Positions 1 through 62,500 are shown, counted from the first letter of the stretch. The stretch is 64,000 nucleotides of DNA from a virus (IMGVR_UViG_3300026292_000004:1-64000), one strand, 5' to 3'. Notes: generated by a model not told the origin, from the sequence alone. Program-made: numbers and translations.

Positions 1-1162
1 ACTCTTTTCCGTCTGCTAAATCAGGACGCATCAGTATAGATCTGTTACCTAATGCTCTGGGACCTAGTTCACCATGTCCTTGATACCATCCAACAATTCT
101 ACCATCAGCAATATACTCAGCAACCTGTGTAATAGTTTTAGGTGATGGTCTCTCAGCAGGTGCTTCATCATCTTGCCAGAATGGGAATCCACTTCTATCA
201 AATTCAGGTTGCTTCCACTGTCTTCTTAACCACTCAACTATACCAAGTGTTAGACCTTCATCAGCACAGTGTGGTATAATATTTAAGTTTGGTCTTACCT
301 TTTTAATCTTAGAATTTACGATAGTATTGAGAGCAACCCCACCACTGTAGAGTATAGTGTCATTAGGTCTACTACTCTTTACGAAATGATTTACAAGAGT
401 ATCTTCTGTAACACTATGACAGAATTGAATTTGATCTAGTACCTTATGATCTTCTTCCTCACCTTGGTGTATTAAACGTTCAATATATTCTAGGTTCCAT
501 AGATCCCTTATACCTTCAATACCCATATCATAGGTATGACATTCTAATTTAGTTTTTTCTAAACACTCAGGTGTCAATCTACCATAGGCTTTTAATGCCA
601 TGACTTTACCTGCCATGTCATGTGGACTACCTTGTAACTTTAATATATGACCACCAAGATCCCCTAACACTCCACCAAAACTAGGTGCATCATTAGTAGT
701 ATATCTTTGAAATCTTTCATCACCATGATATGCAGTGAAGGTTATCTTATCATCACCAAATCCATCATACACAAAATTAACATCCGATTCAATACCAAGT
801 GGCCATGCACTTAGCATATGAGCATAGTGATGATCTATTCTATAGATGGGACAGTCATACCCAATATCTCTGAAGACTGGTATTTCAATTTGTTCAAATA
901 ACTTCTTCTCGTCTGTCTGTATCCTTGGGTACATATGACAGTCTAATACTATACCAATAGCATCAACGTCTTTAGGATCAAAAGTCTCTCCAGTTCTACA
1001 ATATGAATAACGCTCTAGACTATGTGCCCACGATGTTAAATCCTGTGGTGCATAATGCTTTTGTTGCAAATCTCTTTCATGTTTATAGTACCATACCTTA
1101 TCATCAACAGTATAAGTGATACTACTATCATGGTCACATAATCTTAATCCTAAGAAGTTCAT
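1..1162 (-). CDS. Carbamoyltransferase (NodU/CmcH/TobZ family), 3' end runs off the window
   Basis: Not in the ORF track. Read manually from ATG at 1162: [17 protein letters not shown]... Contains [41 protein letters not shown] and [20 protein letters not shown], which are hallmark motifs of this family. Confidence 0.9.
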
Positions 1163-26778: not shown

Positions 26779-27028
26779 TTTCTTTATTAAGTAGAAGTTT
26801 CAGTAGGTCTTTGACATCGCCTATATCAGATTTTAACCCATCTACGTCAGTTTGTAAAGTAGTAAAATCTTTTTTCTTAGCTTGCCTTGCCTCATATTGT
26901 GCCATGTACTCATCGTACTTGGTCATATTACAATTGACAATTGCATTTGATTCTGGATCACGATACCACCCATCCTGTCCTTCAACAGGAATGAGTTCAT
27001 CGGTAAAGTTAATTTTATTGTCAATCAT
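26759..27028 (-). CDS. Small hypothetical protein (LIPVEG..WYRDPESNAIVN, C-terminal coiled coil)
   Basis: ATGA overlap with the upstream DUF4815-like gene. Confidence 0.8.
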   Translation of the reverse strand: MIDNKINFTDELIPVEGQDGWYRDPESNAIVNCNMTKYDEYMAQYEARQAKKKDFTTLQTDVDGLKSDIGDVKDLLKLLLNKENDSNSN

Positions 27029-40701: not shown

Positions 40702-40709
40702 TATTTATG
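40702..40709 (-). promoter_or_regulatory. Late-promoter-like CATAAATA
   Basis: 18 nt upstream of ATG 40684. The same motif and spacing occur at 41578-41585 before the YHYH gene. Confidence 0.6.
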
Positions 40710-41580: not shown

Positions 41581-44500
41581 TTATGGGGCGGGTGTACTTG
41601 ACCATATGCTTGTTACAGCGAAGGTTCCAACTGTAGTACCTGTACCCGCTGGAGATGATCCTTGTCCAGGAATGTCTCCACTGTCCACGTTGGCAAGATT
41701 TTCGGGTGTTACATTAATAACATCAGTATCAACAACCTCTTCTTTATAAAGAGCTTCTTCACCGTATGCACTGAGATCTGGAGCAGTCCATTCATCAGCA
41801 ACCACGTTAGTGATAGTAACACCAGGATAATTATAATTTGAACCAGGGGCGGTTGTATCTACACGAGAAACACCAACCAGTGCTTTAACTGCACCATCAA
41901 AACCAGATGCACTGTCAACACGGATAACTGGACGTGCGCTGAATCCAGATCCAGGATTGGTTACCTGAACAGAATCAATTCTATTCTTAACGATAGCAGC
42001 ATTACCTTGAGCATCACGACCAAATACAGATCCGATATACTCAAATGTTACTAGTGTATTAGAAGATTCAATGACAGCAACTTCTCTATCTTCAGTCTCA
42101 CCTTGAATGTCTAAGAGGTCACCTGCCTCAATTGGAGGAACAATCTCAGACTGCGTAACGTCAGCATCAGAACCAATGTATGCGAAACCAACGAATGTTG
42201 ATCCTACACGAGGAGTTTCTTTGAAAACGACACGAGAACCAACAAGTTCAAAACCGATTCCAGGTTGCTGAATAACACCGTTAAGCGAGATAATGATGTT
42301 GTTGTCTGCGATAATAGACTCAGTTGCCTGTACACCTTCAGTAAGTGCGATAGAGTAGAATGTACCGTCACGCTTAAGGTTGAAGGATGATCTCAATGAG
42401 TCAAACTCAAATGATATGTCATCCAACTGACGCATCTTACCTACGTAGAAACCAGTGAAGGAAGAACCAATGGTAGGTGCTTCGTTGAACTGTATGATGT
42501 CAGAGAATGCTGTGTATGAACCAGCCGCGCCTGGAGGTTGTAGAATACCATTCACAAAGACCATCATGTGACCTTCAGGATCTGGGAAGTATGGAGTACC
42601 GTTTTGCTCAGTTAGTTTGAACTGTGTTTGTGTACCATCAAATCCAACGAACCAACGCTTAGTACGTCCTACGACATCTATCTTCTCACTAGATGCTGCT
42701 TTATATCCATCATCAGAAATGATAGTATCATTTCCAGTAAATGTTCCAACAACATCACTTAGATACACACGATTTGTTAATCCAATTTCATCAATTCTAC
42801 TGACTGTACCGTAAGCAGTTGTAGTTGCGTTAACTGTAGTAGATACCTGACCATAAATTATTGGACTTGAAGTTTCACCTAATTGGTATTGACCAATATA
42901 TTGACCATTAGCGAATGCTGAAGATCCTATTGGTGACACGTACAAGTAATTATTTGCATCATCCCATCCAGTAACAATACCATATGCACCACCGTCAATT
43001 ATTGACTGATTATTGTTTGCTTGATAAACATACTGACCAACAGAGAAGTCAAGAGTTGCGTTAGCACCTGTGAGAGTAACACCTAAGCGTGTGTAACCCG
43101 TAGCAACAACCTTATCACCCGTAGCAATATTTGCTGCTATTGAAGGATGCTTAGTAACATCTAAGTAAATTCTAGTAGCATCTGGGTAAACAACTGAATT
43201 CTCTTCAAATGCACCTACGACACTCTCAGTATCAATTGTAAGTTTACCACCAGTATTATCAAGAACTGCACCTTCATTCTTATTGAATGCTACGATATCT
43301 GCCTTAGCACCACTACTATAACCCTTGAATGAGTATCCTGCCTTCATCTCATTAACGAGATTAATAACTTGGAATCTATCAACGATAGTTTGAATACCCG
43401 CGTTAGTTAAAGTACCAACTTCAAATGTGATATTTGGAGCACCACCATTACCTAATAGTGCATCAGGAAGTGTTAATACATCACTAACACCATATCCAGT
43501 ACCACCATTAGCAATTGTAATATTAGCAGCACCTTGATCATCAACAGTTATGTTAAATGTTGCGTTAGAACCATTACCACCTGTAGCAGCGATACCATCG
43601 TAAGAACCTTGAGTTCTATTTACGTTAGCACCTGCATTTGTTAAGTTCGTAATAGATCCAACAAGGTTAGTACCACCTGCGAGAGCAGCACCAGAAGTTT
43701 GACCTGTAATTCCTAGGTATTGTGTGAATGTACCTGCACTGATTACAACGTCCATATAACGGAAGTTATCATCAGAAGAAGTAGCATAAACAACACCTGT
43801 TATAGCAGCGTTACCAGTGATTTGTATGATTTCACCTAAAGCGAAGTCTGCATTACCACCACCTAGAGTAACTTGATCTGCTTTGAAACTAAATCTCTTA
43901 AAGATCTTAGCAATTCTTGCTTCGTTACTTGTAACTTTCTCAATTTCAGCATAACTATCAGATCCAACAGCATAGAAGTGATCAGAACCAACTATTTTTT
44001 GTCCAAGTCCTACAGGAACGTTTCTAGTACCACCAGCCACGTACGTAGTTGTTGGAAGTGTTACACCAACATAACCAGTTTGTTGCTCATAGAAACTATC
44101 ATCTACAAGTTGTGACTTATAAAGTCTGATAGTATTCTTGATACGGAACATTACTTCAGGTGTATCATAGTATATGTTCAATTCTGGTTTGTAAGCAGGT
44201 ATTGTTCCAGAATCAGGAGCAGGATTAATCAAATTATTATTGAGTTGCTCCTCAACAAAGTCCTCAAATTTATCAAGAATATAGTTCTTAATATTAAATT
44301 CATCAGAGATATAGAACTTCTCACCAGCCTCAGACTGATAGATGTCTAGGAATCCCTTATTAAGTTTAGCACCCCAGATAAATGAACCCTTAGTACCATC
44401 ACCCTCAGAACCACCACCAGCTAAAGTACCAGTATTATTGAGCATGTATTCCTTCATAGTGATAGTAGAAATACCGAATGGAACACGAATTGTTATGAAT

Positions 44501-47500
44501 GGTCGGAACCAACCAAATCCATAAGGTTTAACACCCCAGTATGTTCCCTTCATACCATTTGAATCTGAACCATCACCAACAATTACGTTACCGTTAATGA
44601 ATAGTGAAGGACCAATAGCACCTGTTACTGCATCCCATGTAAATTCTGCCTTATCGGTAGCACTCCATGAAATACTATGACGGAACTTATAATACTCATC
44701 TTGCTTAACAAAGCAACTGAATGTATATTCCTGATAGGATAGTGAAGAACCTTCGTCAAACTTGTTGATAGCATCATCAAATTTGATTGTGTCCTTATCA
44801 AAGGTATCATATGTTGGTAGTGTAAATTCTCTTTCAATTACCTTAGCACTAGTATTAGCACCAGGAATATACTTGTCAGCAGTCATAGTGCCGTCTGGTG
44901 CAACACCTATATCATTAGAAATAGTACCACCAGTTACAGTCCAACCACCAGCATCAAAAGTCTCTCTTTGACCACTTGGCCAGATATTATCTGATTGAGT
45001 CTCACCTGAGACTGGTGATTGTATTAGACGTATATTTTTTAATGCTGCGGTATTGTTGAGGGTAGCAGTAGTTACTGGACCTTCAATACATTCTTCATCA
45101 GCACTCGTAAATGTATGAGTGAAATCACCACCAGTTTGTATCGCATTAATAGCAGCACTTTGTCCAGCAACAAATGTATGTGGGTACTGATCAGCAGTAG
45201 CAGCAATACCAACATTAACAATAATAGTACCATCTTGCTTCTTAATACCGTTAGGTGTACATGTTACGTACGTGTGTAAAGAAGTATCAGGTGAAGCACC
45301 AATATTAACAGAAAGCTGATCAGCACTAATGATTGTAGGTTCTAACCACTTTTGACTCCAAGGATCAGTTGATCTTGGATAAGCATGAACACTAATCTCA
45401 TTATCTAACTGACACTTGAATGTGATTGCTCCATCCTCAAATTTAATCAAATCACCAGCAGAAAGACCGTGGTTGTTGATGTCAAGTGTTAATATACCAT
45501 TATTAGGATTATATGAAGCAGTATCAGGATCATCTACATTATCTGTACCTACTGATTTAATGTTAATTGACTTATTATAGAATGGGTCAGTTGTACGTGG
45601 GTATGTTTGGTTACCACCACCTTGAGTACAAGTGAATGTCAAACTATTAGGTGCAAGTCTAATACTAGTACCAGCAAGCAATCTATGACCAGTCATCACT
45701 GCACCAGGTAGACTGGAAGCATATGTATGAGATAATGGTACGCTAATAGCACCCTGACCACCGTTAACGTTAACTGTAATAGTTGTAGAACTAGTTCCTG
45801 TAATAGCGAGTCTGTTCTTGGCAGCATAATCTATACCACCTACAGCACGAGAACCAGTTAATCTAGGATACGCAGATTGAGTTTGATTACTTTGTCCAAC
45901 ATCAACAGTAACAGTTGTTCCAGTTACAGCATCAATTGATAATATTTGTCCAGATGCAGGGTCGGAAGAACGAGGATAAGGGTGCTGTGTAGCATGACTA
46001 TCAGCATCGCAAGTAAAGATGACTGCCTGATCATCAATCTCAAGAGTATCAGAAGTAGTATAACTATGAGATCCAATCTCCAATACTAGAAGTCCAGTAG
46101 CAGGAGTATATGTTGTACCAGCAGCAGCAGTCTTTTGACTTAAAGTTCCACCAACATCAAAGGTTAATCCATTAGTTACACCAGTAACAAATGTATGAGT
46201 ACCTGTTGCAGCAGCACAAGTAAAGGTGAGAGATTCTGGTTTAAGACCAATGGTATCATCAGTAGTCAATCCATGATTAAGACCAACAGTCAACTCCATA
46301 TCACCACTTGTGGCATTGTATGTTGCGTTAGTTACATCAAGTGCCCCAACTGTCAACTCCATATCACCAGTAGTATGGTTATAATCAGCAGCAGTAGGAG
46401 TATAAGTTCCAGCAGTTGTCTTACCAACATCAACCGTAATAGTATTTGTGGTTACAGATTCAACAGCAATATCTTTCTTATAGAATGGATCAGTTGGTCT
46501 TGGATATGAATGGTAACTACTATCATCATCCATTGCACAAGTAAATGTCAATGAATTTGGTTTGATTTGAATTACATCATTCTGTTTCTGGAGACAATCA
46601 CTAAGTGCTGTCTGGAAAGTATGAGCAGTAGTGTTAGAAGATATTCCTACATTAACCACAAAAGTATTTGTAGTTACTCCTGTAATAGTCAACCATCTAC
46701 CACTAGCAGGGTCAGATGATCTTGGATAAGTCTTAGTTACACTATTGTCTTGAGCACACTTGAATGTTAATGAATTATCATCAAGTTTAATCTTATCACC
46801 ATTACTAAATCCATGACCACTTAAAGTGATAGTCATTGCACCTGTAGCAGGTGTAAAGGCAGCACCAGTTGGTGTATGCTTAGTATATGGTGTCATTCCA
46901 TGACCAGCAATGGTCAGTACCAATTTACCTGTTGAAGGAGTATATGATACATTAGTTGGACTATAAAGTGTACCAATTAAATCAGGTGTAGAAAGTAAAT
47001 CATAGATTGCATCATCTTTAACCTGAGTTAAGAATGCAGTTTCTTCTTCCTCTTCCCAAACTCCACCCCAGTCAGCGATGGTAGAAGACCTAATCTCTTC
47101 TTCAAAGTATTCATCACCAACAAGTATTTGTAGTGCTGATTCACGACCTTGCTTACCAGAAGGTACAAGAATCTCAATTATAGTTTCAATTAAAGTATCA
47201 ATAGCAGATTGAACATTAGCACAATCTTGAGCAGTATAATCAGTACTATAACCATCATCCTGAGAATCAGTTATAGTTAAATCTGTAACAGCAGGAATTA
47301 TGTTTTGATCAGTAAATCTACCAACATAATGTTCTGGAGATAATTGACCAGCACCAGTACTCTGAAGTAAGTTATTAACTGCTTTCTTACAAAGGAATCC
47401 TACTCTTTCAATTGCCTCAGCAGTTTGAGCAAGTTGATCTTCAACCTGTACAATATTTTGAGATGTATCAAGGAACTTCTTAGCAGCTTCTACAGAACTG

Positions 47501-50500
47501 TAGTTACCACCAACAAGAAGGTCAGAAGCAATAGAGTCAACAATAAGAGTCATATCTCTGACACACTTATTCTTACCGTCAGTATCGCCACCTGGATAAT
47601 TAAATACTCTGACATCATTACTACCAGCATCCTGATAAGTAAATTTCTCTTGCATTAAACCAACTGCTTCATTACCAATGTAATCCTTGTTAAAGATCAT
47701 CAAATCAGCAGCATCAGCATATCTATCACCAGTTGGTGAAAGAGTACTATTCATTAAAGTAATAAGAGTATCAATAGAGGTTTTAACATTAGCACATCCA
47801 CCACCATCAACAGTAATTCCAGCAGGAGGAATAATAACATTAGTAGAGTAATTAGCAACTAGAGTTCCGTCAATTGCTGCCTTAGCATAGAATGCTAAAC
47901 GCTCATGAGCATATAGTGATTGTAGAAGTTGTAGTCTAATGTGAAGTATCTCACCATTAGAACCAAGATAGAATCTAAAGGCAGTAACAGTATTTGCATT
48001 ACCACCATACTCTAAATCTTCTGCAATAGCATCAAGAATTAAACCAAGGTCAGTCTTACAACGTATTGTACCAAGACCAGAAGCACCACCTTCGTTTCTA
48101 GGCATATCCTGTACAAGATCAGGATAGCGATTAAGCATATCACCAGCAGTCTCGTCAACAATAACAGTTGCATTAGCACGAATTAGATTCGCGGCATCCT
48201 TATATCTGTTAAGTGCATCTGGATTTAATTGATTACTTACAAATAAGTCATCATCTGGGAATTCCTTATCACAAGTAAATTCACTAGTAACATAAGCATC
48301 AACTACACCACCACCAGTTTCACTAGTAGGAGCAGTTCTAGTTACAGTACCAAGATGATCACTTGGTGTTAATGAATCTGCATTAAAGATAGTATCAGAA
48401 ATAATACCAGTGTATGTTGTGATAGCAGTTGCTACATCCTGACAATAAGGATTAGCGGTATCTGTAGTGATTGTATTATCAATTACCTGCTCATAACCAT
48501 GATCACCTGTGATTGATATAGCGTCTCTACGCATCACATTGATCATGAAATCACGAACCTTACCAATTGCCCATACAGTCTCACCCTCTTCACCTGAAAT
48601 ATGATTAATAAGTATATTATTAGTATCTGCACGATTAACATAATATGCAGCAGTATCCCAAGACTTACTGTTACCTTCGTTACGAAGATCATAGCATATT
48701 GCCTTAACCCACTCCTTAGCATCTCTAACACACTTAGAGAATGATGGATGAGTTCTTTGAATAAAGTTAACTGAACTTGGATATTCAATTGTTCTTAAAG
48801 CACCAGGATCAGATAAAGTATCTGTCACGATCTTCATCAAAGCATCAAGACGTGCATTTGCTTCAGGATATCCACCATAAACGAATGGAATATTTGAATT
48901 AGTTTGCTGAATTTCACCGTGAGAAGTAATTGCATTATCTTCAGAACTTACAAATGTATGTGCATAACCACCACCAGTCTTAACAGCACCAGCAGCAGCA
49001 CTCTGGAATACATGAGTATAGTTACCACCAGCAATTACAGCACCAGCAGATGCACCGATGAATGTATGTGCTGTAGGTGAACCTACAGAAGTAATTGGTT
49101 TTACATCAACTGTAATAGTTCCAGTCTGTGTCTCAAGACCATTAGATGAAGCACTTATAAATGTATGTTCAAAATCTCCAATACTAGTTTGACCAACTTG
49201 AACATCAAATGTATTATCAGTTATATTACTGATTGCTGTCCACTTATTACTAATAGGATCATTTCCTCTAGGATAAGTATGAAGTGTCTGATGTAAATCT
49301 TGATTACATGTAAATGTTAATGAGTTATCTAATATTCTAATCTTATCTTGATCAGTAAATCCATGATTAGCAATAGTTAGTCTTAAAATACCAGTAGAAG
49401 CAGTATATGTTGCACCTGTTACTGTGTGCTGGTTCTTACCAATAGCAGTAATAGGAAGTGCTCTCTGCCAAGCATAGTCAGCACCAGATGGTGTACCACC
49501 ACTGTAACTAGAACCTGTGCCACGAGGATATGCAACCTGTACAGGTGAACCACCGTAAGTACACTGGAATGTTAATGAACTATCTGCTAGTTTAATACTC
49601 TGTGCTTCAATTAAGTCATGAGTTCCGATATTAAGTACCAAATCACCAGAGGTGAAGTTATAAGTTGCACCAGCAACATCATATAGAACTTGAGGTGATG
49701 CACCAACATTAACTGTAATTTCACCAGTCTGCTTCTTAAGAGCATTACCTACACAACTGTTAAAGGTATGAACAGAAGTATCTGGTGACTTACCAATTTG
49801 TATGTCAAATGTATGTGTTGTTAGGTTCTCAATTGGGATCCACTGAGATGCAGAAGGATCTTTTGGTCTTGGATATGAATGATATGAAGTATCACCATCT
49901 AACTTACAAGTAAACTTCAGAGCTTCGTTATCAAGTTTAACCTGATCACCAGCAACCTTAATACCATTAGAAGCAGAAGATTGCCATACATGAGTATAGT
50001 TTCCACCAGTTCTAACAACAGAAGTTAGAATACTATTGTTTACAGCATTAACGAATGTATGTGTATAGTTACCACCACTTGTTATAGCATTAGATGAAGT
50101 ACCACCAACCCATGTATGTGTTGATACGTTAGAAGAAATACCAACGTTAACAGTAATAGTTGTACGAGTTACACCATCAACATAGATTGTTCTATCATAG
50201 TATGGGTCTCTCTGAATTGAAATACCATTTGCAGTAGCAGACTCAAATATATGAGTATCTGGGTTTGTAGAAGGTGCAAGATCTAAAACTTGAACTTTAA
50301 ACGTAGTTGAAGTTACATCAAAAATTGGTAACCATCTACCACTAGCATAATCACTTCCACGAGGATATGAGTGGTTAGTAGCATTACCATCCTTAGCACA
50401 CTTGAATGTTAATGAATTATCTGCGATCTTAATCTTCTCACCATACTTGTAACCATGAAGAGGTACAGTCAATGTCAAATGTCCTGTAGCAGGATCATAT

Positions 50501-53500
50501 GATGCAGTATTAACTGTAGAAGTATCAATTGTATTTCTTGGATAAGTATGAGTTGTTACACCATCTGGTTCAGCGAGAGTAGCATCTTGCTGACACTTGA
50601 AGGATAACTTATCCTGTCCAATCTTAATACCTTGTCCTTTCTTAATTCCGTGGTTATGACCAACAGTAAGAACCATCTCACCTGTATTTGGTGAATAAAC
50701 TGCATTAGTTACATCATGGTTAACTAGAGGTGTTGTACCAACAGGAACAGTAATTGTATTAGCATCTACAACAGTAACATCTAACCACTTGTTAGCAACT
50801 GGATCTGTTGAACGAGGATATGCATGAACAGTTTCATGATGATCCATGTCACATGTAAACTGAAGTGCATCCTCAGCAATCTTAATTCTACTTGTACTTT
50901 CAAGTCCATGACCAGTAATAGTCATCTGAAGAGTACCGTTACCAGGATTATATGTTGCAGCAGTAGGTGTTAATCCTACAGCAGGAACAAACTTATGGGC
51001 AAACTGGTTACCACCAGATCCTACATTTACATTAATAGTAATAGTAGTTGGAGTAACTCCCTTAATATTCAATGCTGCATTATAAGCAGGATCAGTTGAT
51101 CTTGGATACTTATGAGTAGTAGCATAACCATCATTAGAACATGTAAATTCTAAAGATTCTTTTGCTAGTTTAATAGCAGTTCCAACCTTAAGATCGTGAT
51201 TACCAATCTCAAGTACTAAATCACCACCAGTATGATCATATTCAGCATGAGCAACATGGAAATCTTTAAGAGGTGACTTACCAACATTAACTTTGAATAC
51301 TGTAGTACTGTCAACATCTACATCTAACCACTTACCGAAAGTAGGATCACTCTTACGTGGATAGGTCTTATTACCAGAACCCATTGCACAACTAAATGTG
51401 AATGCACCTTCTTCAAATCTTACACGAGCACCGTTAGCAAGACTATGAACACCAGTTGTAGTAACTGACAATTCTCCAGTTGCAGGGTCGTATGTTGTTC
51501 CAGAAGCACCTGTTAGATTAGTTGGTCCACTCCAACCATGATTTTGAATATCAAGAGTTAGAACACCTGTTTCAGGATTGTACTTAGTACCAGCAGTACC
51601 AATACCAACATTCATTGTAATGTCGTTTCCAGCCTTAGTGATTGGAATAGTTCTACTCCAAGTAGCATCTGAGGTTCCTGTTCCTAATGTAGTAAAGATT
51701 GGGTCGGTTGCTCTTGGATATGCATGGTTAGTAGCATTTTGATCAAGATCACAAGTCATTGTTAGTGAACTTACCTTCATGTTAATGAAGTCACTAGCAG
51801 CAAGTGAATCTGTACCATCAGCACCAACAGTAAGAACTAGGTTACCAGTTTCAGCAGTATAAACTGCATTAGTTACTGTATAAGTATTGCCTGTAGCACT
51901 AGCATCTCTGATACCGCCACTAAGAGCAGAAACAAATGCATGGTTACCAGCAACTACTGTATGTTGAGTTTGACCAACAGCAGTAATAGGAATATTTGTG
52001 TTATGTACTGGATCAGTTGATCTTGGATAAGTCTTATTAGTATTCTGACTATCCATGTTACACTGGAATGTCAGAGAGTCAGTATCAATCTTAATAGCAT
52101 TACCAACATTCATATTGTGCTTACCAATATTGAGTGTTAGATTACCATCAGCAGGAGTATATGTAGCAGCAGATACATCATGTCCGACTTCAGGAGAAGC
52201 ACCAACATTAAATGTAACGTTACCATCTTGTCCTAAAAGTCCATGTGGAGCATGAGACTTGAATGTATGATTATAAGCACCACCATTGTATACAACTGCT
52301 CTTGATACACAATTGAATACCGCAGAAACAAATGTATGAACTGTATTATTAGAAGTAATTCCAACGTTAATAGCAAATGTATCTGTAGTGACCTTACCAA
52401 TCTTCATCCACTTACCGCTAAATGGATCGGTCTCTCTTGGATAAGAATGCTGTGTCTTATTATCGTCAGTAGCACAAGTGAATACTAAACCAGCATCAGC
52501 AACCTTGATATATTCACCACTTGCAAATGTATGACCAGCAAGAGTTAGAGTCATCCAACCTGTAGCAGGATCATAATCAGCATCAGTTGGAGTATACTGG
52601 TTGTTAGCATTAACAAATTGATGAGTACTTGTATTGGTTGGAGTAGTACCCTGTAATGCATTAACCTTAATAATACCACTCTGATACTGAAGACCATTAG
52701 CAACAGCACTGTCAAATGAATGAACAGTAGTGTTAGAAGAAACTCCTACGTTACACTTAAAGGTATCAGCATCTACTACCGTTACTGTAATCCACTTACC
52801 ACTTATAGGGTCAGTAGATCTTGGATATGCATGAGTACCACCACCAGCAGTACAAGTAAACACGATTGAACTGTCTACTATTTTAATTCTTTGACCAGAA
52901 ACAAATCCATGAGCAGCAGATGTAATTGTTAATAAACCTGTAGTAGGTTCGTAAGTTGCACCAGTTGCTGTCTTAGCATTAGTTCCAATATCAGTAATCT
53001 TAAGGAACTTATTGTATGCAGGATCAGTTGTTCTTGGATATGACTTATTAGTGATGTAGTTATCACTGTTATGGTTACAAACAAAGTTTAGAGAGTTGTT
53101 TGCAATCTTAACATACTCACCAACAGAGAAGTCATGATCTCCAATAGTAAGTTCTAGAACTCCAGATGCAGGTGTATAAGATGCACCAGTAACACCAAAT
53201 CCTTCAATATTTTCACCAGTACCAGTTTCAATACAGTTATTATCAGCACGAACAAATGTATGTCCAGATGTATTAGAAGATACACCAACGTTAACAGTAA
53301 TCTTACTGTCTCTTCTTATAATACCATTTGCAGCAACTGCTGTACAGTTATGATTAGAAGTGTCTGAAGACTTACCTATTTGAACATCAAAACTATCTGT
53401 AGCAACAGCATCAATACGTAACCATTGACCACTAGCAGGGTCAGTTGGACGTGGATATAGATGATTACTACCGTAACTATCAGTATTACACTGGAAGGTT

Positions 53501-56500
53501 AAGGACTCATCAACAATCTTAACGTATTCACCGACAGTGAAATTATGACCTGTTTGTCCAATTGTTAGAACACCTGTAGTAGGTTCGTAGTCAGTATCTG
53601 ACTGAGCAGCAGTATATGGTGTACCTTCATACTTAATAGGAATTGAAGTATCATATACTTTGTCACGTTTCTGTTGAATACCATCAGCAACACCAGAAAC
53701 AAATGTATGAGTGTAGTTACCACCAGTCTGTACAGCACCAGCAGAAGCAGAAACGAATCTATGCTCTGTCTGATCTGTTGAAGGAGCAGATGGAAGAACC
53801 TGCATACTAATAGTCATGTCCTGACCAGTAACACATCCAGCAGTACAAGATACGAAAGTATGCTCTGTTGCGTTAGTAGAAGGTACAGAAGCAAGAATCT
53901 GAACATCAAATGTATCAGGAGTTCTATTGAATACAGTTAACCACTTACCACTTGATTCATCAGTTGCTCTTGGATAAGAATGTACTGTGTCATGATTGTC
54001 ATGATCACATGTAAAGCTAAGAGCATTGTTTGCAATCTTGATCTTATCACCATTCTGTACAGGATGATCCTTAATAGTTAAGGTTACATGACCTGTATTA
54101 GGATTATAATCAGCAAATGTAGGTGTTAAAACAGCATCGCCAACCGCAGTGATAGCAATGGAAGTGTTGTATGTAGCACTATCATTACCATTATTTCTAG
54201 GATAAGTCTTAGTTGTTGCGTGATTATCGTTGTTATAATCACAAGTAAATGTTAATGAATCCTGAGCAAGTTTAATTGCATCACCCGCAACCATTCCATG
54301 AGTACCAATGGTAAGTTCCATGATACCTGTGGTTGGGTTGTATGCAGCATCAGTTGGTGTATAGTTTACAGCAGGTGACTTACCTACATTAACAGTAAAT
54401 CTTGTTGTACTAGGAACACTCTCAACTTGTAACCACTTATCATATGTTGGGTCAGTCTGACGTGGATATGCCTTATTAGAACTACCACCGTCCATTGTGC
54501 AATTAAATGTGATTGCACCTTCATTAAACTTGATCCAATCACCTACTTGCATACCATGTGTAGCAGCAGTAGTAACATCTAAAACACCAGTTAAAGGAGC
54601 ATAAGTTGAACCAGATGCTGCCTGATGAGTATCAATAGCTGTACGAGGATAAGTATGCTCAGTAGCATTACTATCTAAAGCACAAGTCCAAACTAATGAA
54701 TTGGGTTGAATCTTAATTGTCTGACCAGCAGCAAGACTATGAGTACCAATATCAAGTACCATATCTCCTGTAGTAGGATCATAAGTACCAGCAGAAGGAG
54801 TAAATGTGTATGATAAACTCTTACCTACATTAACTTCAAAACTGTCTGGATTTGAATTAGAAATCTTTAACCAACGACCATTCCAAGGATCAGTTGTTCT
54901 TGGATAGTTATGATCAGTATGATGATCATCTTGATCACATGTGAATACTAATGACTTACCAAGAATCTGAACACTATTACCATCTACAAATTTATGTCCA
55001 GGAACCCATAACTGAAGTATTCCAGTCTCAGGATCATAAGTTGCATTATCTATAGTATGAGATGTAATACCAACTTCTTTAATTGCATTCTTACGTAAGT
55101 ATGATTGATCTTCAAGACGAGGATATGTGTGCTCAGACTTATTACCGTCCATTGCACAAGTAAACTTCAATGAGTTAGCAGTAACACATGCACTACCATT
55201 AGAACGAGTAGAGTTAACTATAAAGTTGTGTGATTTACCAATATCTACTGTAAGATCACCAGATACAGGTTCATAAGTTGCATCAGATGCCTTAAATCCA
55301 TTATACTGAAGAACTGGAGAGTTGTTGATTACTCTCTTAGCAATATCTCTTGCTTCATTAAATACACGAATTGAGAAACTTTCTTTACCCTTAAGGTGAT
55401 CAAGTTTAGCATTATTAACATATAATTTAGCAGCATCATAGGTCTTATTGTTAAAACCATATGTTAGGTTATAAGAAATATTACGAATAATATCTTTTAC
55501 GTCATCCTTACAATCTATAGGACCAGTTCCTGGAGGTGGTTCTGGTGAAATACGATCATATGCTTCAGCAGCAATGAAATCTAAGTTACTATTGATAACA
55601 TCGTAGAATTCCTTACCGTAAGTAATAGGTACTTCAGTATCAGGATGAGGAATGTGTAATTTAACAAACTCTTTATCAGTCTGATAAATTGCTTCATTAG
55701 CAATCAATTCAACGTTGTTTAATATCTCAGTTGAAGCATCAAAGAATCTGAAGGTAGTATCTCCAGTTAAGAACTGATCACCTTCGTTCCATGTAGGTAC
55801 TCCAGACCAATCTTGGAAAGTAGTAGATAGGTTAGCACCATCAAAGTGTACTAAGAGGAGAGTATTAATATCTCCTTGATGCATATAAGTTGCATTAGTA
55901 AAGTTAGTAGTGTAACGCTTATTATTAGATACTCTTAATTCATCAACATATCCTTGGAACTGGTTAGCAGCAGCGTGATCTGCACCAACCTTAATTGGTT
56001 TTGTAGTACCATAATCAGTAGCATTAGACCAAGTAGAACCTACCTGAGTTCCATCTAAGAACATTCTATGATTGTTTCCGTCTCTAGAAACTGCTACATG
56101 ATGCCATGTATTTTGAGTTACAGTACCACCAGTAATTACATCAGCACCACTAACATGGTATTCTAATCCAGTACCATCAAGTCTTATGCAAGGTGATGCT
56201 TCTGAAGCTTGAGTTCTAAAGTCAATTAAATGCTGAGTACCAGTAACACTAGCAGCATAGAACCAACACTCAACTGTCCACTCACCATTTCCAAAACCAA
56301 ATTCAGTTGAAGTTGGAACTGAAACATAAGCAGAACCATTCAAATATAGAGATGCACTACCAAATTTCTTCTGTAGAGTTGCATTAATAGCACCACTTTG
56401 AGCAACAGGAACGTGTAAATCTGTACTACGACGTGCTACCTTACCAAGATAAAGGTATTTACGTGCATAGTTAGTACCAATTACTTGAGCAGTACCATTC

Positions 56501-59500
56501 TCACTACGGATAATATCACCAGTTAAAATTAAACCATCAGGAGTAACTTTAGGTTCATCATATGCAAGTTTGTATAGACGAACTGTTTCTCCATCAATTA
56601 AATCGCCTGAGATGTTAGAGTAGTTAACAATGTGGTTACGAATATCTTCGTCAACTGTAAACGTACCAGCAGCATTATTATACTCTAGAATTAAGTTACT
56701 TACAACTTCAGAATTAGGGAACTTACTATTAAATTCAGTATTCTTATCATTAACATCAGTTAGTTGTAACTGAGTCTGTGAAACATTATCAAGAATAACG
56801 TTCTGGAAATTAATATTAGTAATTCTGTTGAATACTAATCCTTGGAAAGTAGATCCTTCAGAAATAATAACTTGGTTATTTGGTTCATTAGTTACAGGAT
56901 CTCTGTATGCAGAAATACCAATAACTTCAGCAACAATATTACTCTTCTGACCAATGATTATATCACCAATAACAATATCAAATAAACCAGCAGTAGACTG
57001 ATAAGTACCAGCAGTCTTACTTAATAATACAGTATCTCCAATCTCAATAGTTGTTCCAAAGACATTACTATCAGTTTGGTGACCTACAACAGCAGTTCCA
57101 TCAACACCTCTGTTAGCAGTAACAGTGTTACCAACTATAGTTGCCACCTCAAATCTCTCAGAATCAATCTGATAAACTCCACCAGTATTAGCAACAATAG
57201 TAACAGTAGCATCTTGATTACCACCACCACTAATTGTAATTACATCTCCAAGAGCATATCCTGTACCACGTTCCTTAATCTTAGTTGCAGTTATTACTCC
57301 ACTACCATCTGCATCAACAGTAACAGTCATTCCAGTACCAGATCCACCTGATGTAGATACACCATCAATATTATCAATGTATCCAGTACCAGCAGTAGTT
57401 AATGTTACCTTAGAAAGTGCATATCCAGAAGCAACATCAAATGTGTTACCAGATGCAGAAAGACCAGCAGGGATAGTAGTTAGAACCTGACCATTATCAC
57501 CTTCTAGGTTAACTCTTTCAATCTTAGCATTGTCCCCTCTAAGGTTCTCAATATCTTCTTTAAACTGGAATAAGTTAGTATTTGTGATAGGATCAATACT
57601 ATCAACGTTTGCAGTAAATCCTGTAGCAGATGAAGTGATAGCCTCACCTTCATATGTAAGAGTTGTAGCAGGATCATCAACCTGGAAAGGTTGACCAGCA
57701 GTAGTCTTATAATAGAAGTCAACAGTTGTTAAACCAGTAGCAACAACAATTGCCTCATAATCAGTTATAATACCTCTAATAGTACCACCTACAAGTGGGA
57801 AAATACCAGAAATAGTACTTAAATTCGCTCTATAAAGAGTTTTAAACTCTAATGTAGCATTTGAATACTGAACATTAGCAGGAGGTTGAGGTGGTGATGA
57901 GAATACAACATTTGATCCCTGAACAGTAAATGCATCTCCAGGAGACTGTACAATACCATTCAAACTAATTAAGAGTTGATTAGCAGATGCAATAACAGGT
58001 TCTGTTACAACATTACCATCTTGGTTAATATTTTGAACAGTCAATCCAAATGAGATCTTCTCGCCATCAAACTGATCTGAAATATCATTAATCTTCTGAA
58101 CAGTAGAAGTTAGAATCTGCTCGGAAGAAGTCAAATTCTTCTGTCTGAAACGAACCTCAGTGTTATCAAATTCAGTATAAACTGGTTCAACTAGAGTAAA
58201 GTTCTGTAGATTTGGAACAATAGCAGATTCTGCAAGGTTAACTGACTTAGTAAGTTCAAATGCAGTCTCTTTGTTCTCAATAGTTGATTTTTCAACTAAT
58301 CCCAATTCACCAAATACCTTAAATCCAGCAGGGTGAACGTTAGTAATAAGGATGTCTCTCCAGTCAGATATTGAAACAGGAGCCTTAACACTATAGGAGA
58401 AGTCCTGATAGAAATAAGAGTCTTGAATCTTCTGAATGATTTCTGAAGGTTTACCTACATCATCAACGAATCTACCTGGAGTTGTAGTGATAGCACCAAC
58501 TTCTAGGACACCCTTAGCAATACTAAAGTTATCAATTGTACCAGATGCCTTGGAAATAGTACCAGTAACAATCTGATTCTTACTAAATGTACCAGTATAA
58601 TCAACAATCTTAAGAATTCTAGGTCCAATTTGCCAACCATCATTCTCTGAAACGTATCCAGTTGCAGTTGCATTTTCTAATGTATCACCTTGATAGATTA
58701 ATTCACCAGCAAGGAAACGACCAGTAACAACGTTTGCAGTAGCAGCACCACCGAATGAATCTGTTAAAACGACCTGTCTACCAGTACCAGCATTAGTATA
58801 TGAAATATAATCACCAATTGCAGCATTATCTTTAGTAATTGCTAAACGCAATTGATCATTTTCTAGTGAATTACTAATACCAGAAATAGCATAATATGTT
58901 GTATTGGCATTCAATCTACCGAAAGATGAGATTGGTAGTTCTGGATCATCTCCACTACCATCATCATTAGAAGTTAATGTTACAGCAGAACCATTTACAA
59001 TACCATGTGGGAACGAGAATTGTAGTAAATTAAGGTCAAGGTTAACAACATAGTTAAAGGATGACTTCAAAGTTACAGCAGGTTGTGAGGAGTAACCTGC
59101 ACCTGGATCCTTAACTTCAATAGCATCAATACGTCCGTTCTTAATAGATGCCTCAGCAGTTGCTCCTGAACCTCCACCACCAGCAATAATAACAGCAGGA
59201 GGGGTAGCATATCCAGAACCTGGGTCAGTAACAGTAATACTATCCAGTATGTTTGTACTAGTTAACTGAACGTTGACTGGGAATGTGATTTCAGGACGTA
59301 ATGTATAGTCATGAGTATAATCAAAACCGAAGTTGTTGTTCTTAAGTTTCTTAATCTTACCGATCTTATCTGCTTTAACGAAGACAGATGCACCAGTTCC
59401 ATTTGGAGGAATAACAACAGTTAATTCTGCACCAGAACCAGTAAGTCCAGCACCTAAAATACCAGTGATAGACTCAATGTCAATAGTTGCAGTAGTATAA

Positions 59501-62500
59501 TTCTTACCTGGATCAGTAACGATTACCTCAGCAATCTGACCTGGAATGTTGTTACCTTCATCATCCTCACCATCAGCAACAGTAATATTAACCTTACCAC
59601 CTTCTCCATCACCACTAATAGGTACTCCAGTGTATTCTCCTACAGCATATTCAGTACCTGGTTCAGTGATTGCAACTCTTTCAATCTTACGATTGGAGAC
59701 AATTTGTGAAATAACAGGTAACTTCTTGTAGAACCCACCACCATTTACTAGACGGATATCTCCAATTGGTCCAACTGCTTTAGTTGAGAATGTTGTATAT
59801 TTAACTAAACTTGCTTGAGCAGTACCTTCTGGTTCCGAAGTTAATGGGAACTTAAAGATTGTATCACCAGTAGTAATAGTACCACCACTAGTAGAGTATA
59901 TTACGAAATTGCCGTTATATGGTGTAGTTACAACATCCATGTAAGTACCAGCATCAACTGGAGATGTATCACCAGTTTTTGATGGATCAAAGTAATATGA
60001 TATATTTGTTACATCATTATTAATAGAAATCTGAACATAAGGTTCTGGTTGGTTTCCAACCTGATAACCTGGAGTTCCAACACGAGTAATTGAGTTGAAT
60101 GAATATTCTAACTTAAATAGGTTATCCTTAGAGAAGGACATGAAATATCCTTGCAAGGATGTATCACCAAGCATAAACTTATACTTGTGCTGATAATACA
60201 TCTTAAGTACAGGATGCTTGGCATATATGTCAATTGCCGAAGCAGCAACAGGTAAACCAACAGCAACTGCTCGTAAACCAACAATAAATGATCTAGTGCT
60301 TAAAACATTAGTAACATTGAATGATCCATTAAATTCCTCAAGATCATTACCAGAAATTAATAGATTATCTCCAACTTTATGGCGATGTGCTTCAGCAGTA
60401 GTAAAGTAAATCTTATCAGTATTAGCAGCATCATCAAGGATTATAATCTTCTCAAGATTAGTAATTAGAGTAATCTGAGTTACAGCAGTCAATTGATTAG
60501 GTGAAGCACCAATTGTTAACTGAGTTCTATCGGCATTCCAAGAAACAGTATCTGAAGTTGGAGTAATAACACTTCCAACAATATATGGAGATCCAGCAGG
60601 TGCAGTAGCATCAATTCTTACAGTATAATCATTAATACTATATTCCTTAAATCTAGCAGATAATCCACCAGGAATGTCAAATATGAATGTACCTTGTCCA
60701 GCAGTAGCATCATGATCCTGATTAGCAAAGGTTTGTGATGCAATTTCATTAACTTCAGTTCCAGTAGATACAATTTCTCCAGTATCTTCCCAACCTACCC
60801 AATCAGTAGCAGTACCGTAACTTGCAACATATACACCAGTAGAATCACTATCTACAATAGTAGCAGTTCCTATAACCTGCCCACCAGCATTCTTTTGTTG
60901 TAATTGAGATCCAACATTAAAAGTTGCAGGTTGATTGAATGTGAATTTAAGAATATTATCTGCTTGTATAGCATCAACAGTCTGAATATAAAACTTACCC
61001 CAAGTTAGTGGAGTTGCTTTAACCTTTCTACCACCAATAGCAGGTATAGTAGCAGTTCTAGTAGACCATACATCTGTAGTAGATGATATAGTTACAGAGT
61101 CAAGTACAAGAGTTGAGTTTGCATCATTGTAGTCTAGAACCTGTAAACCTTCACCTGCAAGTGTTAATGCTCCTGGATTAATTACCTGATCAGTAACATT
61201 ACTGTAGGTATATGCAGCAGTATTGAATTGCCACGTAGTATTAGTTCCAGTAAAGTCTCCTTGACGACTAGTATCAACATTCTTATCAGTCTTAAGTATT
61301 AAACTGCAATCAACAGCGTAAGTATATTTCTGGAGATAAGTATTAAAATCAGCAGTAGTAGAAGGAACTATAACCTGTATTACACGGTCAGTAATCTTAA
61401 ATCCATCAACATTAAATGATCCAGCAGTGGTAACAGTCAATCCTGAAGAAGCACTCTGCCAATTAGGTGAGTTACCCATGTAAATCTTAGCAGTAGTTGC
61501 AATATTGCTATTTCCTGGAAGAGTTCCTGTACCTACTTGAGTTCCATTAGCATATACAGTATAGACATTACCATTCTTAGTTAATGCAATATGAACATAA
61601 CCAACGTTGTTAATAAGAACATTATCAACACTAGCAATAGCACCAGCAGTTCTTTGAGTAGTAGCAGAAGCATACATCTCAATCCGCTTATTACTACGGT
61701 TTAACATGACCGTAATACCTGGTTCATTACCATGTCCTACACCAAATAGGATATGGTGACTAGATCCAGCAGTACCTAATCTAGTATCTTGCTGATCATT
61801 AGATTCATCAACTGAGAAGAATCCTTCAATTGTCCAATTACCATTAACATCAAATGAATCCTTGAATCCCCAAATACCTGTATTATTGCCTGGTTCTAGT
61901 TCAAAGTGAGTATCTGCCCATGCAGATCCATCCCAAGCATCAATCATCAAACCACCAGTACTACCCTTACCATTAGGAGCACCACTAGTAATATTAGAAC
62001 CTTTATAGTAATCTCCAATAAGATTTCTATTAGTAATGTTACCTGTTGTATCTACAGGTTCAGTTTCACTAGTTTGTTCAAAGTTAAAGAGTCCAATGAC
62101 TTCATTACGGAATGCTTGTCCTACAAAAATTGGGTCACCAGAAGCATCTGAAACAAAATCGTTAATTTCAAATCCAACTATATTTCTAGTAAATTTAACT
62201 ACATTAGTAGAAATTAAAGTACCATCATACTTAATCTTGGTAATTTCACTTTGCTTACGATATGCATCATACTCAGCAGTAGATTCGTTAACCTCATAGT
62301 TACATGCAACGTTATACTGTCCGAATACATCAATATTACCACCAATTGCCTTTAAATTTCTCCAAGTAGTTCCTCCAGTAGGAGTCCAACGCTTACCCCA
62401 AACAACAGTGTCACTAGTAGTTACTTTAGTAACAATTATTGAATTTGAGTTAGATGCAGAGTATGCAGTACCAGAAACATAGAAATCTCCAAATTCGTCA

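What the first reader, a model, noticed from the sequence alone, without database searches (positions are those of the whole stretch)
48916..55305. Recursively nested, branched domain tree: 20 copies of one domain inserted into each other's loops up to 8 levels deep
Seen in sequence: the ~105-aa unit has four parts, a (A.Y.P.TG...H...FTC...YPR), b (TDP...W..I..VG), c (TITVNVG.S) and d (HTFVSA..NGI). The parts are not in tandem order but close like balanced parentheses. Numbering domains by start, the parse is D1[ D2[ D3[ D4[D5[D6]], D7 ], D8[D9, D10] ], D11[ D12[ D13, D14[D15[D16[D17[D18]]]] ], D19[D20] ] ]. Every opened domain is later completed in last-in-first-out order. For example, after D18 come D17 bcd (RDPYYDRT...HTWVGG), D16 d (NYTHTFVNA), the D15 end, D14 d (NYTHVWQSS), the rest of D12 (GDQVKLDNEALKFTC) and D11 c. 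The array ends with three stacked closers (AHTFIGA / YTHVFQSA / YAHTFVSS). Insertion sites are stereotyped (after YPRx, after I.xVG, after VG.SP, after HG.., inside HxFV.A). 2,130 aa / 20 = about 106 aa per unit. Inference: the unit's N- and C-termini are adjacent, so one polypeptide folds into a dendritic scaffold projecting from the baseplate rather than a linear fibre. Single domain insertion is well known, but I know of no described case of self-similar branched nesting at this depth.
Basis: partly seen in the sequence, partly recalled or inferred. Interest (0 to 1): 0.95.

Follow-up and report, generated by a model that had tools for sequence, protein, structure and literature searches.

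The report
Self-nested beta-barrel tree in cyanophage baseplate protein
A giant baseplate protein of a marine T4-like cyanophage holds 20 (plus 6) copies of one unannotated ~100-residue beta-barrel domain inserted into each other's loops up to eight levels deep; this is the largest such self-nested protein tree I could find, though cyanobacterial RNA polymerase has a smaller one.

Summary
Window 48916-55305 (minus strand) is residues 2899-5028 of a >7,472-aa ORF in the baseplate-wedge module of a T4-like cyanomyovirus. It holds 20 openers, 20 C..YPR motifs and 20 HxF closers. Profile fragments close in last-in-first-out order.

After in-silico excision, all 20 units (and 6 of a second array) align full length to a profile built from uninterrupted units. 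Residue couplings learned from uninterrupted units favour nested over crossed pairing in 42 of 48 independent clusters.

AlphaFold2 models of D4[D5[D6]] (pLDDT 85) and of D11-D20 (pLDDT 72.5) contain single barrels. Their first and last aligned residues match five predicted split units, up to 520 residues apart, and three leaves.

Homologues differ by whole units gained or lost at the same loops. The architecture is family-wide: 387+ giant homologues, and 286 cultured phage records, all cyanophages.

The unit has no Pfam family and no solved relative by sequence. Its nearest folds are the E1 FCCH barrel and the phage endosialidase barrel, both inserted domains themselves.

The novelty claim is overstated. 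Cyanobacterial RNA polymerase Si3 is a published self-nested array of 8 domains and 6 levels. Three junctions can be read as tandem or nested from sequence alone. Function is unproven. The scan noted this same stretch before.

The parts
41581..63999 (-). Giant virion protein gene (>7,472 aa, 5' end beyond the window) at the gp7 position of the baseplate-wedge module
   Evidence: ORF list and translation. PHROG 701/18802 virion structural protein and 2885/13163 baseplate wedge subunit. Downstream genes match baseplate wedge, neck and sheath-stabiliser families. In P-SSM4 the homologous gene is annotated gp7.
48916..55305 (-). Array 1: 20 units of the ~100-aa 'YPR' beta-barrel domain, nested as D1[D2[D3[D4[D5[D6]],D7],D8[D9,D10]],D11[D12[D13p,D14[D15[D16[D17[D18]]]]],D19[D20]]]
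48919..55293 (-). D1 (root), three segments: 55051-55293, 52189-52248, 48919-48975
   Evidence: Reconstituted unit scores 58 bits over profile positions 4-102.
52249..55050 (-). D2, segments 54814-55050 and 52249-52293
   Evidence: 103 bits, profile 6-96.
53227..54804 (-). D3, segments 54637-54804, 53611-53673, 53227-53307
   Evidence: 98 bits, profile 3-101.
53674..54621 (-). D4, segments 54373-54621 and 53674-53727
   Evidence: 112 bits. In AF2 model 1, barrel matches of 74-85 residues span model residues 1..322.
53728..54363 (-). D5, segments 54136-54363 and 53728-53820
   Evidence: 109 bits. Barrel matches span 87..303 and 91..271 of model 1.
53827..54129 (-). D6, uninterrupted leaf
   Evidence: 136 bits. 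Barrel matches span 164..271 of model 1.
53317..53607 (-). D7, uninterrupted leaf
52294..53193 (-). D8, segments 52978-53193, 52600-52674 and probably a last strand at about 52294-52302
   Evidence: 110 bits. Whether D10 lies inside D8's last hairpin or after D8 is not resolved.
52687..52974 (-). D9, leaf
52303..52599 (-). D10, leaf
48976..52182 (-). D11, segments 51970-52182, 49681-49728, 48976-49032
   Evidence: 104 bits. Two weak barrel matches (Z 5.4-5.6) span 1..1073 of model 2.
49735..51969 (-). D12, segments 51946-51969 (first strand), 51529-51594, 49735-49956
   Evidence: 112 bits. Split inside part a, at profile positions 26|26.
51598..51945 (-). D13p, contiguous circular permutant read d-a-b-c
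   Evidence: 73 bits after reordering. Weak barrel matches span 79..197 of model 2 (Z 2.4-2.9). It can also be read as the end of a tandem D11.
49957..51507 (-). D14, segments 51271-51507 and 49957-50007
   Evidence: Barrel matches of 68-83 residues span 220..749 of model 2. Best are Uba1 FCCH at Z 8.2-8.6, rmsd 2.4-2.6.
50008..51258 (-). D15, segments 50977-51258 and a last strand at 50008-50025
   Evidence: Barrel matches span 304..727 of model 2. This places D16-D18 inside D15's last hairpin.
50026..50973 (-). D16, segments 50725-50973 and 50026-50085
   Evidence: 119 bits.
50095..50718 (-). D17, segments 50530-50718 and 50095-50211
   Evidence: 91 bits. The continuation starts at profile position 57.
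50218..50520 (-). D18, the deepest leaf (level 8)
   Evidence: 141 bits. Barrel matches span 552..663 of model 2.
49033..49680 (-). D19, segments 49432-49680 and 49033-49131
   Evidence: 72 bits.
49132..49431 (-). D20, leaf
   Evidence: 133 bits. Barrel matches span 917..1023 of model 2.
45082..46962 (-). Array 2: six more units, E1[E2,E3[E4[E5p],E6]], including a permutant inserted in the C..YPR loop
   Evidence: All six reconstitute full length at 73-136 bits.

Best explanation
Window 48916-55305 encodes a real, recursively nested and branched array of one small beta-barrel domain. The domain is about 100 aa. Its nearly invariant residues, in profile numbering, are Y9, G14, H23, C42, Y53-P54-R55, D58 and H91.

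Shown or strongly supported. Each unit is either continuous or cut at one or two permissive loops. The commonest cut is between parts c and d. Others lie between b and c, just after YPR, and after the first hairpin; cuts inside the C..YPR loop and inside the last hairpin are rarer. A complete unit, or a whole subtree, fills each cut. The host's remaining strands follow the guest, so segments close last-in-first-out and pair with partners up to about 2,100 residues away in sequence. The tree has 20 units and up to 8 levels. A second tree of 6 units lies about 650 residues downstream.

Inferred. The barrel's two ends lie side by side, which is what allows both insertion and the circular permutants. 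The tree grew by copying units or subtrees into these loops, since homologues differ by exactly one unit or one balanced subtree at the same sites. A tandem copy abcd-abcd has the same letter order as a host abc[d-abc]d with a permuted guest, so tandem duplication is one route into nesting.

Function is least certain. With roughly 55% confidence, I read it as a compact branched scaffold on the baseplate wedge that displays many copies of one conserved His/Cys/Asp/YPR site. That site would be a metal clamp tying the closing strand to the opener, a glycan-binding pocket, or both, and would help the phage adhere to the cyanobacterial surface.
For: - Counts and order: 20/20/20 motifs, a complete last-in-first-out parse, and few shuffles that parse.
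- Reconstitution: all 26 units of the window align full length to the profile. Family-wide, 558 of 619 strictly parsed split units do so, with a median of 100.5 bits against 119.4 for uninterrupted units.
- Couplings learned only from uninterrupted units (Neff 322): the true partner beats swapped closers in all four split classes. Nested pairing beats crossed pairing in 105 of 131 c|d pairs and 10 of 10 b|c pairs, and in 42 of 48 clusters at 60% identity, sign test p = 1e-7.
- AF2 model 1 (D4-D6): pLDDT 85.3, pTM 0.75, closers at pLDDT 78-91. Barrel matches of 74-85 residues span 1..322, 87..303 and 164..271.
- AF2 model 2 (D11-D20): pLDDT 72.5. Barrel matches span 220..749, 304..727, 552..663, 917..1023 and 1..1073.
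- An independent BFVD model of an ACG-2014d homologue matches model 1 at TM 0.61 and 40% identity.
- Whole-unit gain or loss at the c|d site and after the first hairpin between homologues of 68-81% identity.
- Spread: the same architecture in 387+ giant homologues and in 286 phage records, all Synechococcus or Prochlorococcus phages or marine single-cell viruses.
- Conservation: C42 100%, Y53 and P54 100%, R55 and H91 99.7%, D58 99%, H23 96%. Coupled column pairs 44-89, 50-94, 47-92 and 41-92 place the C42-H51 loop beside the H91 strand.
Against: I could not read model coordinates or PAE, so 3-D pairing rests on the first and last aligned residues of structural matches, not on measured contacts.

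Model 2 has a thin alignment for eight of its ten units. Confidence is low for D15's HKF strand (model residues 391-404, pLDDT below 50). Support for D11 (Z 5.4-5.6) and for D13p (Z 2.4-2.9) is weak.

Profile scores cannot tell alternative closers apart. The sequences in the coupling tests are related, so the p-values are optimistic.

No evidence here bears on function, on metal binding or on the shape on the virion.
Confidence: 0.85

Rival explanations
1. The array is nested but shallower and simpler than the reader's tree. The three sequence-ambiguous junctions (D8/D10, D11-D13, D15/D16) would be plain tandem neighbours, no unit would be circularly permuted, and the depth would be 7 rather than 8.
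For: A tandem abcd-abcd has the same letter order as abc[d-abc]d. D11 also scores 97.5 bits as one continuous unit, and swapping the candidate closers changes profile scores by under 5 bits. My first automatic parse took this reading and still closed every unit. Model 2 is least confident exactly at D15's HKF strand.
Against: Under this reading one extra c-type strand (window 49681-49728) has no unit to belong to, yet it is predicted at pLDDT 77-86. Barrel matches span 304..727 (D15 start to the strand after D16's closer) and 1..1073 (D11 opener to the final closer). In array 2, and as a recurring pattern in homologues, a d strand that precedes an a-b-c run sits inside a host that is completed later, so it can only belong to the permuted guest.
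Confidence: 0.25
2. There are no nested globular domains. The a, b, c and d pieces would be mosaic beta-strand modules of a linear fibre or continuous beta-structure that pair with whatever lies next to them in sequence.
For: Phage fibres are often built from short shuffled repeats. The closers look alike, so shuffling the continuations alone still parses in 1.2% of trials. Foldseek found weak matches to tandem FN3 arrays (E 2e-3 to 4e-2, TM 0.1-0.15).
Against: Each opener has exactly one set of later pieces completing a full-length unit. Couplings favour the distant partner. The models give separate barrels built from distant segments, with confident closers. Homologues gain or lose whole units without disturbing the host.
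Confidence: 0.04
3. On function: the tree is a glycan-binding (lectin-like) array rather than an inert scaffold. Each barrel would bind host surface polysaccharide, as the inserted beta-barrel of phage endosialidases does.
For: Structural matches to the beta-barrel of endosialidases K1F/NF and phi92 (Z 6.2-7.5, rmsd 2.1-2.5, 77-83 aligned). From my own knowledge, that barrel carries a sialic-acid binding site. Each unit holds a nearly invariant polar cluster. Concanavalin-like LamG domains lie in the same protein. The gene sits among baseplate and fibre genes.
Against: Z of 6-8 is within the range of common barrel arrangements, as the tool's own note says. Sequence identity is 12-17%. An invariant Cys/His set fits a structural metal site at least as well as a sugar pocket. 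No binding data exist.
Confidence: 0.3

Closest known systems
Si3 insertion of cyanobacterial RNA polymerase beta' (nested SBHM domains)
   Same: One small beta domain is repeated and inserted into copies of itself. Several domains are built from distant parts of the chain, and single hosts carry more than one insert. [quoted passage not shown]
   Different: Here there are 20 + 6 units and up to 8 levels in one chain, and up to about 30 units in homologues. The protein is a virion protein, not an enzyme. The unit has no detectable sequence relation to any annotated family, and RNA polymerase did not appear among the strong structural matches (Thermus chains only at Z 2.5). Circular permutants are present. 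The phage architecture is predicted, not solved.
FCCH beta-barrel of ubiquitin-activating E1 enzymes (Uba1/Uba6; Pfam PF16190)
   Same: This is the best structural match to both split and continuous units: Z 8.0-8.6, rmsd 2.3-2.7 A, 74-78 residues aligned, 14-18% identity. FCCH is itself a domain inserted into another domain. One homologue (P0010) reaches 30.4 bits for PF16190 by summing weak stretches, against a cutoff of 29.5.
   Different: The window's own units do not hit PF16190, and profile searches of PDB sequences do not find E1. FCCH occurs as a single copy, with no self-nesting. Z around 8 may reflect only a common barrel arrangement.
Inserted beta-barrel domain of phage endosialidase tailspikes (K1F/NF, phi92)
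   Same: It is a phage tail protein, a small barrel inserted into another domain, and a structural match at Z 6.2-7.5.
   Different: One barrel per chain, no nesting and no sequence similarity.
T4 gp7 baseplate wedge protein
   Same: The gene sits in the baseplate-wedge module. Parts of the giant protein hit PHROG 'baseplate wedge subunit' families, and GenBank annotates the P-SSM4 homologue as gp7.
   Different: T4 gp7 is about 1,000 aa (own knowledge), and I did not test whether it holds this domain. The cyanophage protein is seven times longer, and most of the difference is made of added modules, including these arrays.
Linear arrays of Ig-like, FN3 or BACON domains on phage particles (such as T4 Hoc)
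   Same: Many copies of a small beta domain decorate a virion, probably for weak multivalent adhesion.
   Different: Those arrays are beads on a string. This one is a tree in which hosts are interrupted by guests.

Membership tests
Recursive self-nested domain insertion architecture (type example: cyanobacterial RNAP Si3) | Repeated homologous domains within one chain | tested here: met
   20 + 6 units all match one 103-position profile at 58-141 bits.
Recursive self-nested domain insertion architecture (type example: cyanobacterial RNAP Si3) | Domains assembled from sequence-distant segments, A1-B-A2, applied recursively | tested here: met
   Last-in-first-out parse; couplings; spans of barrel matches in two AF2 models. 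This is a prediction, not a solved structure.
Recursive self-nested domain insertion architecture (type example: cyanobacterial RNAP Si3) | Branching: one host carries two or more inserts | tested here: met
   D1, D2, D3, D11 and D12 each hold two or more guests.
SBHM (sandwich-barrel hybrid motif) fold | Structural match of the unit to SBHM domains of RNA polymerase | tested here: inconclusive
   RNA polymerase chains appear only at Z 2.5. The top matches are other barrels.
E1_FCCH (PF16190) | Pfam match above the gathering score | tested here: not met
   No hit for the window's array or for its leaf units. Only homologue P0010 reaches 30.4 bits against a cutoff of 29.5, by summed weak stretches.
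E1_FCCH (PF16190) | Same fold | tested here: inconclusive
   Z 8.0-8.6, rmsd 2.3-2.7 A, 74-78 residues aligned. This is at the upper edge of what unrelated barrels give.
T4 gp7-type baseplate wedge protein | Gene in the baseplate-wedge module of a T4-like phage | tested here: met
   The neighbouring genes match baseplate wedge subunit, wedge-fibre connector, neck and sheath-stabiliser PHROGs.
T4 gp7-type baseplate wedge protein | Sequence homology to T4 gp7 itself | not tested
   Only PHROG families named 'baseplate wedge subunit' matched parts of the protein. No direct comparison with T4 gp7 was made.
Structural metal-binding (Cys/His) domain | Conserved ligand set clustered in space, with bound metal | not testable with these tools
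   H23, C42, D58 and H91 are 96-100% conserved, and the C42-H51 loop covaries with the H91 strand. Distances in the models could not be read.

The most novel reading that the evidence does not exclude
This is the largest and deepest self-nested domain tree known in any protein: 26 units in this chain, 8 levels, and about 30 units in relatives. It is built from a previously unnamed beta-barrel family confined to marine T4-like cyanophages. It grows by duplication into its own loops, with circular permutants as intermediates. It places well over a hundred identical His/Cys/Asp/YPR sites on each baseplate as a branched, mechanically protected adhesion or metal-binding dendrimer.
Probability: 0.45. 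Interest if true: 0.85.

Novelty: new variant of a known kind. Interest (0 to 1): 0.74.

Why it matters
Domain insertion is usually one level deep. The one well-studied recursive case, cyanobacterial RNA polymerase Si3, has eight domains. This array shows that the same principle can scale to 20-30 copies and eight levels in a single chain. It does so in a protein carried by some of the most abundant viruses in the ocean.

The family offers a natural series of trees that differ by single insertions. That series is useful for several questions: how discontinuous domains fold, how repeats evolve into trees rather than strings, and whether nesting shields inner domains from force or proteases.

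There are practical consequences too. The unit has no Pfam family, so these proteins are annotated inconsistently as gp7, YapH, tail fibre or short tail fibre. Repeat finders and domain callers that assume contiguous domains will miss or miscount the units. Cultured phages such as P-HM1, P-SSM7, P-SSM4 and Syn1 carry the same modules, so the prediction can be tested directly.

Tried and rejected
Searches that found nothing useful
- Pfam and NCBI-style family searches: nothing for the unit.
- PDB by sequence profile: only a weak iota-carbonic anhydrase row (E 0.0017-0.14), which I judged to be chance.
- Foldseek against PDB: nothing at E <= 1e-3.

Alignments that had to be dropped
- An alignment for the larger D3 subtree put the outer unit of the helper rows onto D3 instead of D4. 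I dropped it for the clean D4-D6 target.
- Helper rows of the [abc[a[leaf]bcd]d] pattern aligned chimerically onto D16 plus D19-D20, and were dropped.
- Sixty-five single-segment rows meant to deepen every unit were all stacked by MAFFT onto D19/D20, and were dropped.

Tests that could not discriminate
- Profile scores of alternative closer assignments differ by under 5 bits, so they cannot settle D11/D12/D13.

Searches for more orthologues
- The IMG/VR scan gave 2 loci and the metagenome scan 1 more, so this lineage is rare.
- The search for related loci with the leaf alignment had no stretch conserved enough to search with.

- One related-loci query was too long.

Other
- DNA repeats within the arrays are only 60-88% identical, so there is no sign of very recent copying.
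- Complex prediction was not used. A split-domain docking test would not show which closer binds which opener.

Full report
**Setting.** The finding lies on the minus strand inside one ORF that runs from 63999 (open at its 5' end) to 41581, more than 7,472 aa. The downstream genes match PHROG families for baseplate wedge subunits, the wedge-fibre connector, neck proteins and the sheath stabiliser. DNA and protein searches of cultured phages hit only Synechococcus and Prochlorococcus myoviruses, where the homologous gene is annotated variously as gp7 baseplate wedge initiator, structural protein, YapH or tail fibre. The window is therefore from a T4-like cyanomyovirus, and the gene sits at the gp7 position. 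Outside the arrays, Pfam sees only LamG-type lectin folds in this protein. PHROGs call it a virion structural or baseplate wedge protein.

**The observation.** Window 48916-55305 translates to 2,130 residues. Simple motif counts give 20 YxPxxG openers, 20 C..YPR and 20 HxF closers. Six units are uninterrupted and align with each other at 33-48% identity.

A profile built from them, then rebuilt from 509 uninterrupted units of 121 giant homologues, has 103 positions. Against the window protein it gives many truncated hits. The missing profile parts turn up later in the chain, in last-in-first-out order. One example is a unit that stops at profile position 26 (protein residue 4157) and resumes at position 26 at residue 4682, with five other units in between.

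The 32 segments of array 1 parse completely. The array still parses in 175 of 200,000 shuffles of all segments, and in 2,468 of 200,000 shuffles of the continuations only. The second test is weak because most closers are of the same type. I therefore looked for evidence beyond order.

With inserts excised inside a script, all 20 units, and the 6 units of a second array at 45082-46962, align to the uninterrupted-unit profile from positions 1-6 to 96-102, at 58-141 bits. The units account for 2,063 of the 2,130 residues. Across the family, 558 of 619 distinct strictly parsed split units do the same. Their median is 100.5 bits against 119.4 for uninterrupted units.

**Which closer belongs to which opener.** Profile scores cannot tell this, so I used residue couplings.
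- From 565 distinct uninterrupted units (Neff 322) I took the column pairs with the highest corrected mutual information. Several link the C42-H51 loop with the H91 strand.
- I scored split units with these tables. The partner assigned by the nested parse beats closers borrowed from other split units of the same protein in all four split classes. For c|d, n = 262 and p = 1e-10; for the split after YPR, 96% of cases favour the assigned partner.
- For host-guest pairs cut at the same loop, nested pairing beats crossed pairing in 105 of 131 c|d pairs and 10 of 10 b|c pairs.
- After collapsing relatives at 60% identity, nested pairing wins in 42 of 48 clusters, sign test p = 1e-7.

The sequences are related, so these p-values are optimistic. 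The direction is consistent throughout.

**Structure prediction, model 1.** The first job took D4[D5[D6]] (window 53665-54630, 322 aa) with 36 collinear sequences of the same three-level pattern from IMG/VR loci. The result was pLDDT 85.3 and pTM 0.75, with the closing strands at pLDDT 78-91.

I could not obtain coordinates. VIA-align against 48,161 PDB chains gave single-barrel matches of 74-85 residues, and their first and last aligned model residues fall into three classes:
- 1..322, which is D4 (predicted 4-86 plus 305-319);
- 87..303 and 91..271, which is D5 (predicted 90-165 plus 271-301);
- 164..271, which is D6 (predicted 168-268).

The model therefore contains three similar barrels, two of them made from both ends of a stretch with another barrel in between. 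An independent BFVD model of a homologous piece of phage ACG-2014d superposes at TM 0.61 over 323 columns.

**Structure prediction, model 2.** The second job took D11-D20 (window 48970-52188, 1,073 aa). Only four orthologues were available, plus 16 rows covering D19[D20]. Attempts to deepen the alignment failed. The result was pLDDT 72.5 and pTM 0.44. The spans of the barrel matches were:
- 220..749, which is D14 (predicted 228-306 plus 730-744), best Uba1/Uba6 FCCH at Z 8.2-8.6;
- 304..727, which runs from D15's start to the short strand just after D16's closer;
- 552..663, which is D18;
- 917..1023, which is D20;
- 1..1073 in two weak rows, which is D11's opener to the final closer;
- 79..197 in very weak rows, which is the permuted D13.

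They also made me give up my own shallower parse. D16-D18 sit inside D15's last hairpin. D12 begins with a short first strand before the permuted D13. D11 is closed only near the end of the array. With that reading D18 is at level 8.

These three junctions stay ambiguous on sequence alone. A tandem abcd-abcd has the same letter order as a host abc[d-abc]d with a permuted guest. I give the tandem reading 25%.

**Evolution.** Pairs of homologues at 56-91% identity differ by large indels that consist of whole units or balanced subtrees at the usual loops.
- P0022 has one extra unit between c and d, and another after the first hairpin, where P0030 is continuous.
- P0031 against P0034 differs by one unit after the first hairpin.
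- P0004 against P0009 differs by a balanced 333-aa block.

One lineage repeats a four-level module three or four times per protein. Among 578 two-segment units, cuts cluster at profile positions of about 85 (240 units), 70 (114), 80 (61), 55 (60) and 25 (57). DNA copies within the window are only 60-88% identical, so the duplications are old.

**What the unit is.** It has no Pfam family, no solved relative by sequence and no Foldseek match in PDB. Its nearest folds are small barrels. The E1 FCCH domain matches at Z 8.0-8.6, the endosialidase barrel at Z 6.2-7.5, and FNR-type FAD-binding and EF-Tu domain-2 barrels at Z 5-7. The first two are inserted domains themselves. One homologue barely passes Pfam's FCCH threshold by summed weak hits. 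I treat that as a lead, not as membership.

A profile search of 1.84 billion representative proteins finds 729 clusters. All 286 cultured-phage records with the domain are cyanophages or marine single-cell viruses, and 121 of them match most of the three-level query collinearly.

**Function.** This is inferred only. C42, Y53, P54, R55, D58 and H91 are 99-100% conserved, and H23 is 96% conserved. Couplings put the Cys loop next to the His strand. That would let a metal site, or a fixed polar pocket, tie the closing strand to the opener. It would also present one site per unit. With 26 units per chain and, if the protein is present once per wedge as T4 gp7 is (own knowledge), six chains per baseplate, that is about 150 sites. 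LamG domains in the same protein and the endosialidase-like barrel fit surface-glycan adhesion, but nothing here tests it.

**Novelty.** I found no paper on this array in the library searched. Recursive self-insertion itself is published for cyanobacterial RNA polymerase Si3: 8 SBHMs of which 4 are discontinuous, described as a 6-level architecture with bifurcating nodes. The phage tree is a larger, deeper and independent instance in a new domain family and a new setting.

Earlier first-reader notes of this scan on the same stretch describe the nesting, the second tree, the permutants and the Cys/His set. I tested the first three and partly tested the fourth.

Noticed in passing
window 45082-46962 (-): A second, separate nested tree of six units, E1[E2,E3[E4[E5p],E6]]. 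It uses two cuts after the first hairpin and one inside the C..YPR loop, and it holds a circular permutant. All six units reconstitute full length at 73-136 bits.
   Followed up: yes
window 46978-48915 and 55306-55700 (-): The alpha-helical stretches flanking both arrays carry a recurring motif: C..D, about 12 residues, DL..GGN, then an aromatic. Homologues (such as P0010, 27.9 bits) give weak Pfam Phycobilisome (PF00502) hits in comparable regions. The window's own protein gave none at E <= 0.01. The arrays may themselves be inserts in a helical repeat.
   Followed up: no
window 55921-56340 (-) and upstream: Two stretches of Concanavalin-A-like LamG domains (PF13385, E 1.8e-27) lie just before array 1 in the same protein.
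   Followed up: partly
window 49659-49726 and 52158-52225: A 68-nt stretch covering a host's c strand plus the start of the next unit is 76% identical between the D1/D11 junction and the D11/D19 junction. This suggests that a junction-spanning piece was copied.
   Followed up: partly
L003-L061 (IMG/VR loci related to P0092): One cyanophage lineage repeats a four-level module [abc[abc[ab[leaf]cd]d]d] three or four times per protein, so whole subtrees are duplicated as blocks.
   Followed up: partly
window 27025-34479 and 19103-26461 (-): Two further very large ORFs (2,484 and 2,452 aa) of PHROG 358 (unknown function) and PHROG 697 (structural protein) follow the baseplate genes.
   Followed up: no
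window 40705-41559 (-): The 284-aa ORF directly after the giant gene shares a segment of about 110 aa with the giant-protein PHROGs (701, 4406) and with baseplate wedge PHROGs (708, 2885). It is a shared module between neighbouring baseplate proteins.
   Followed up: no
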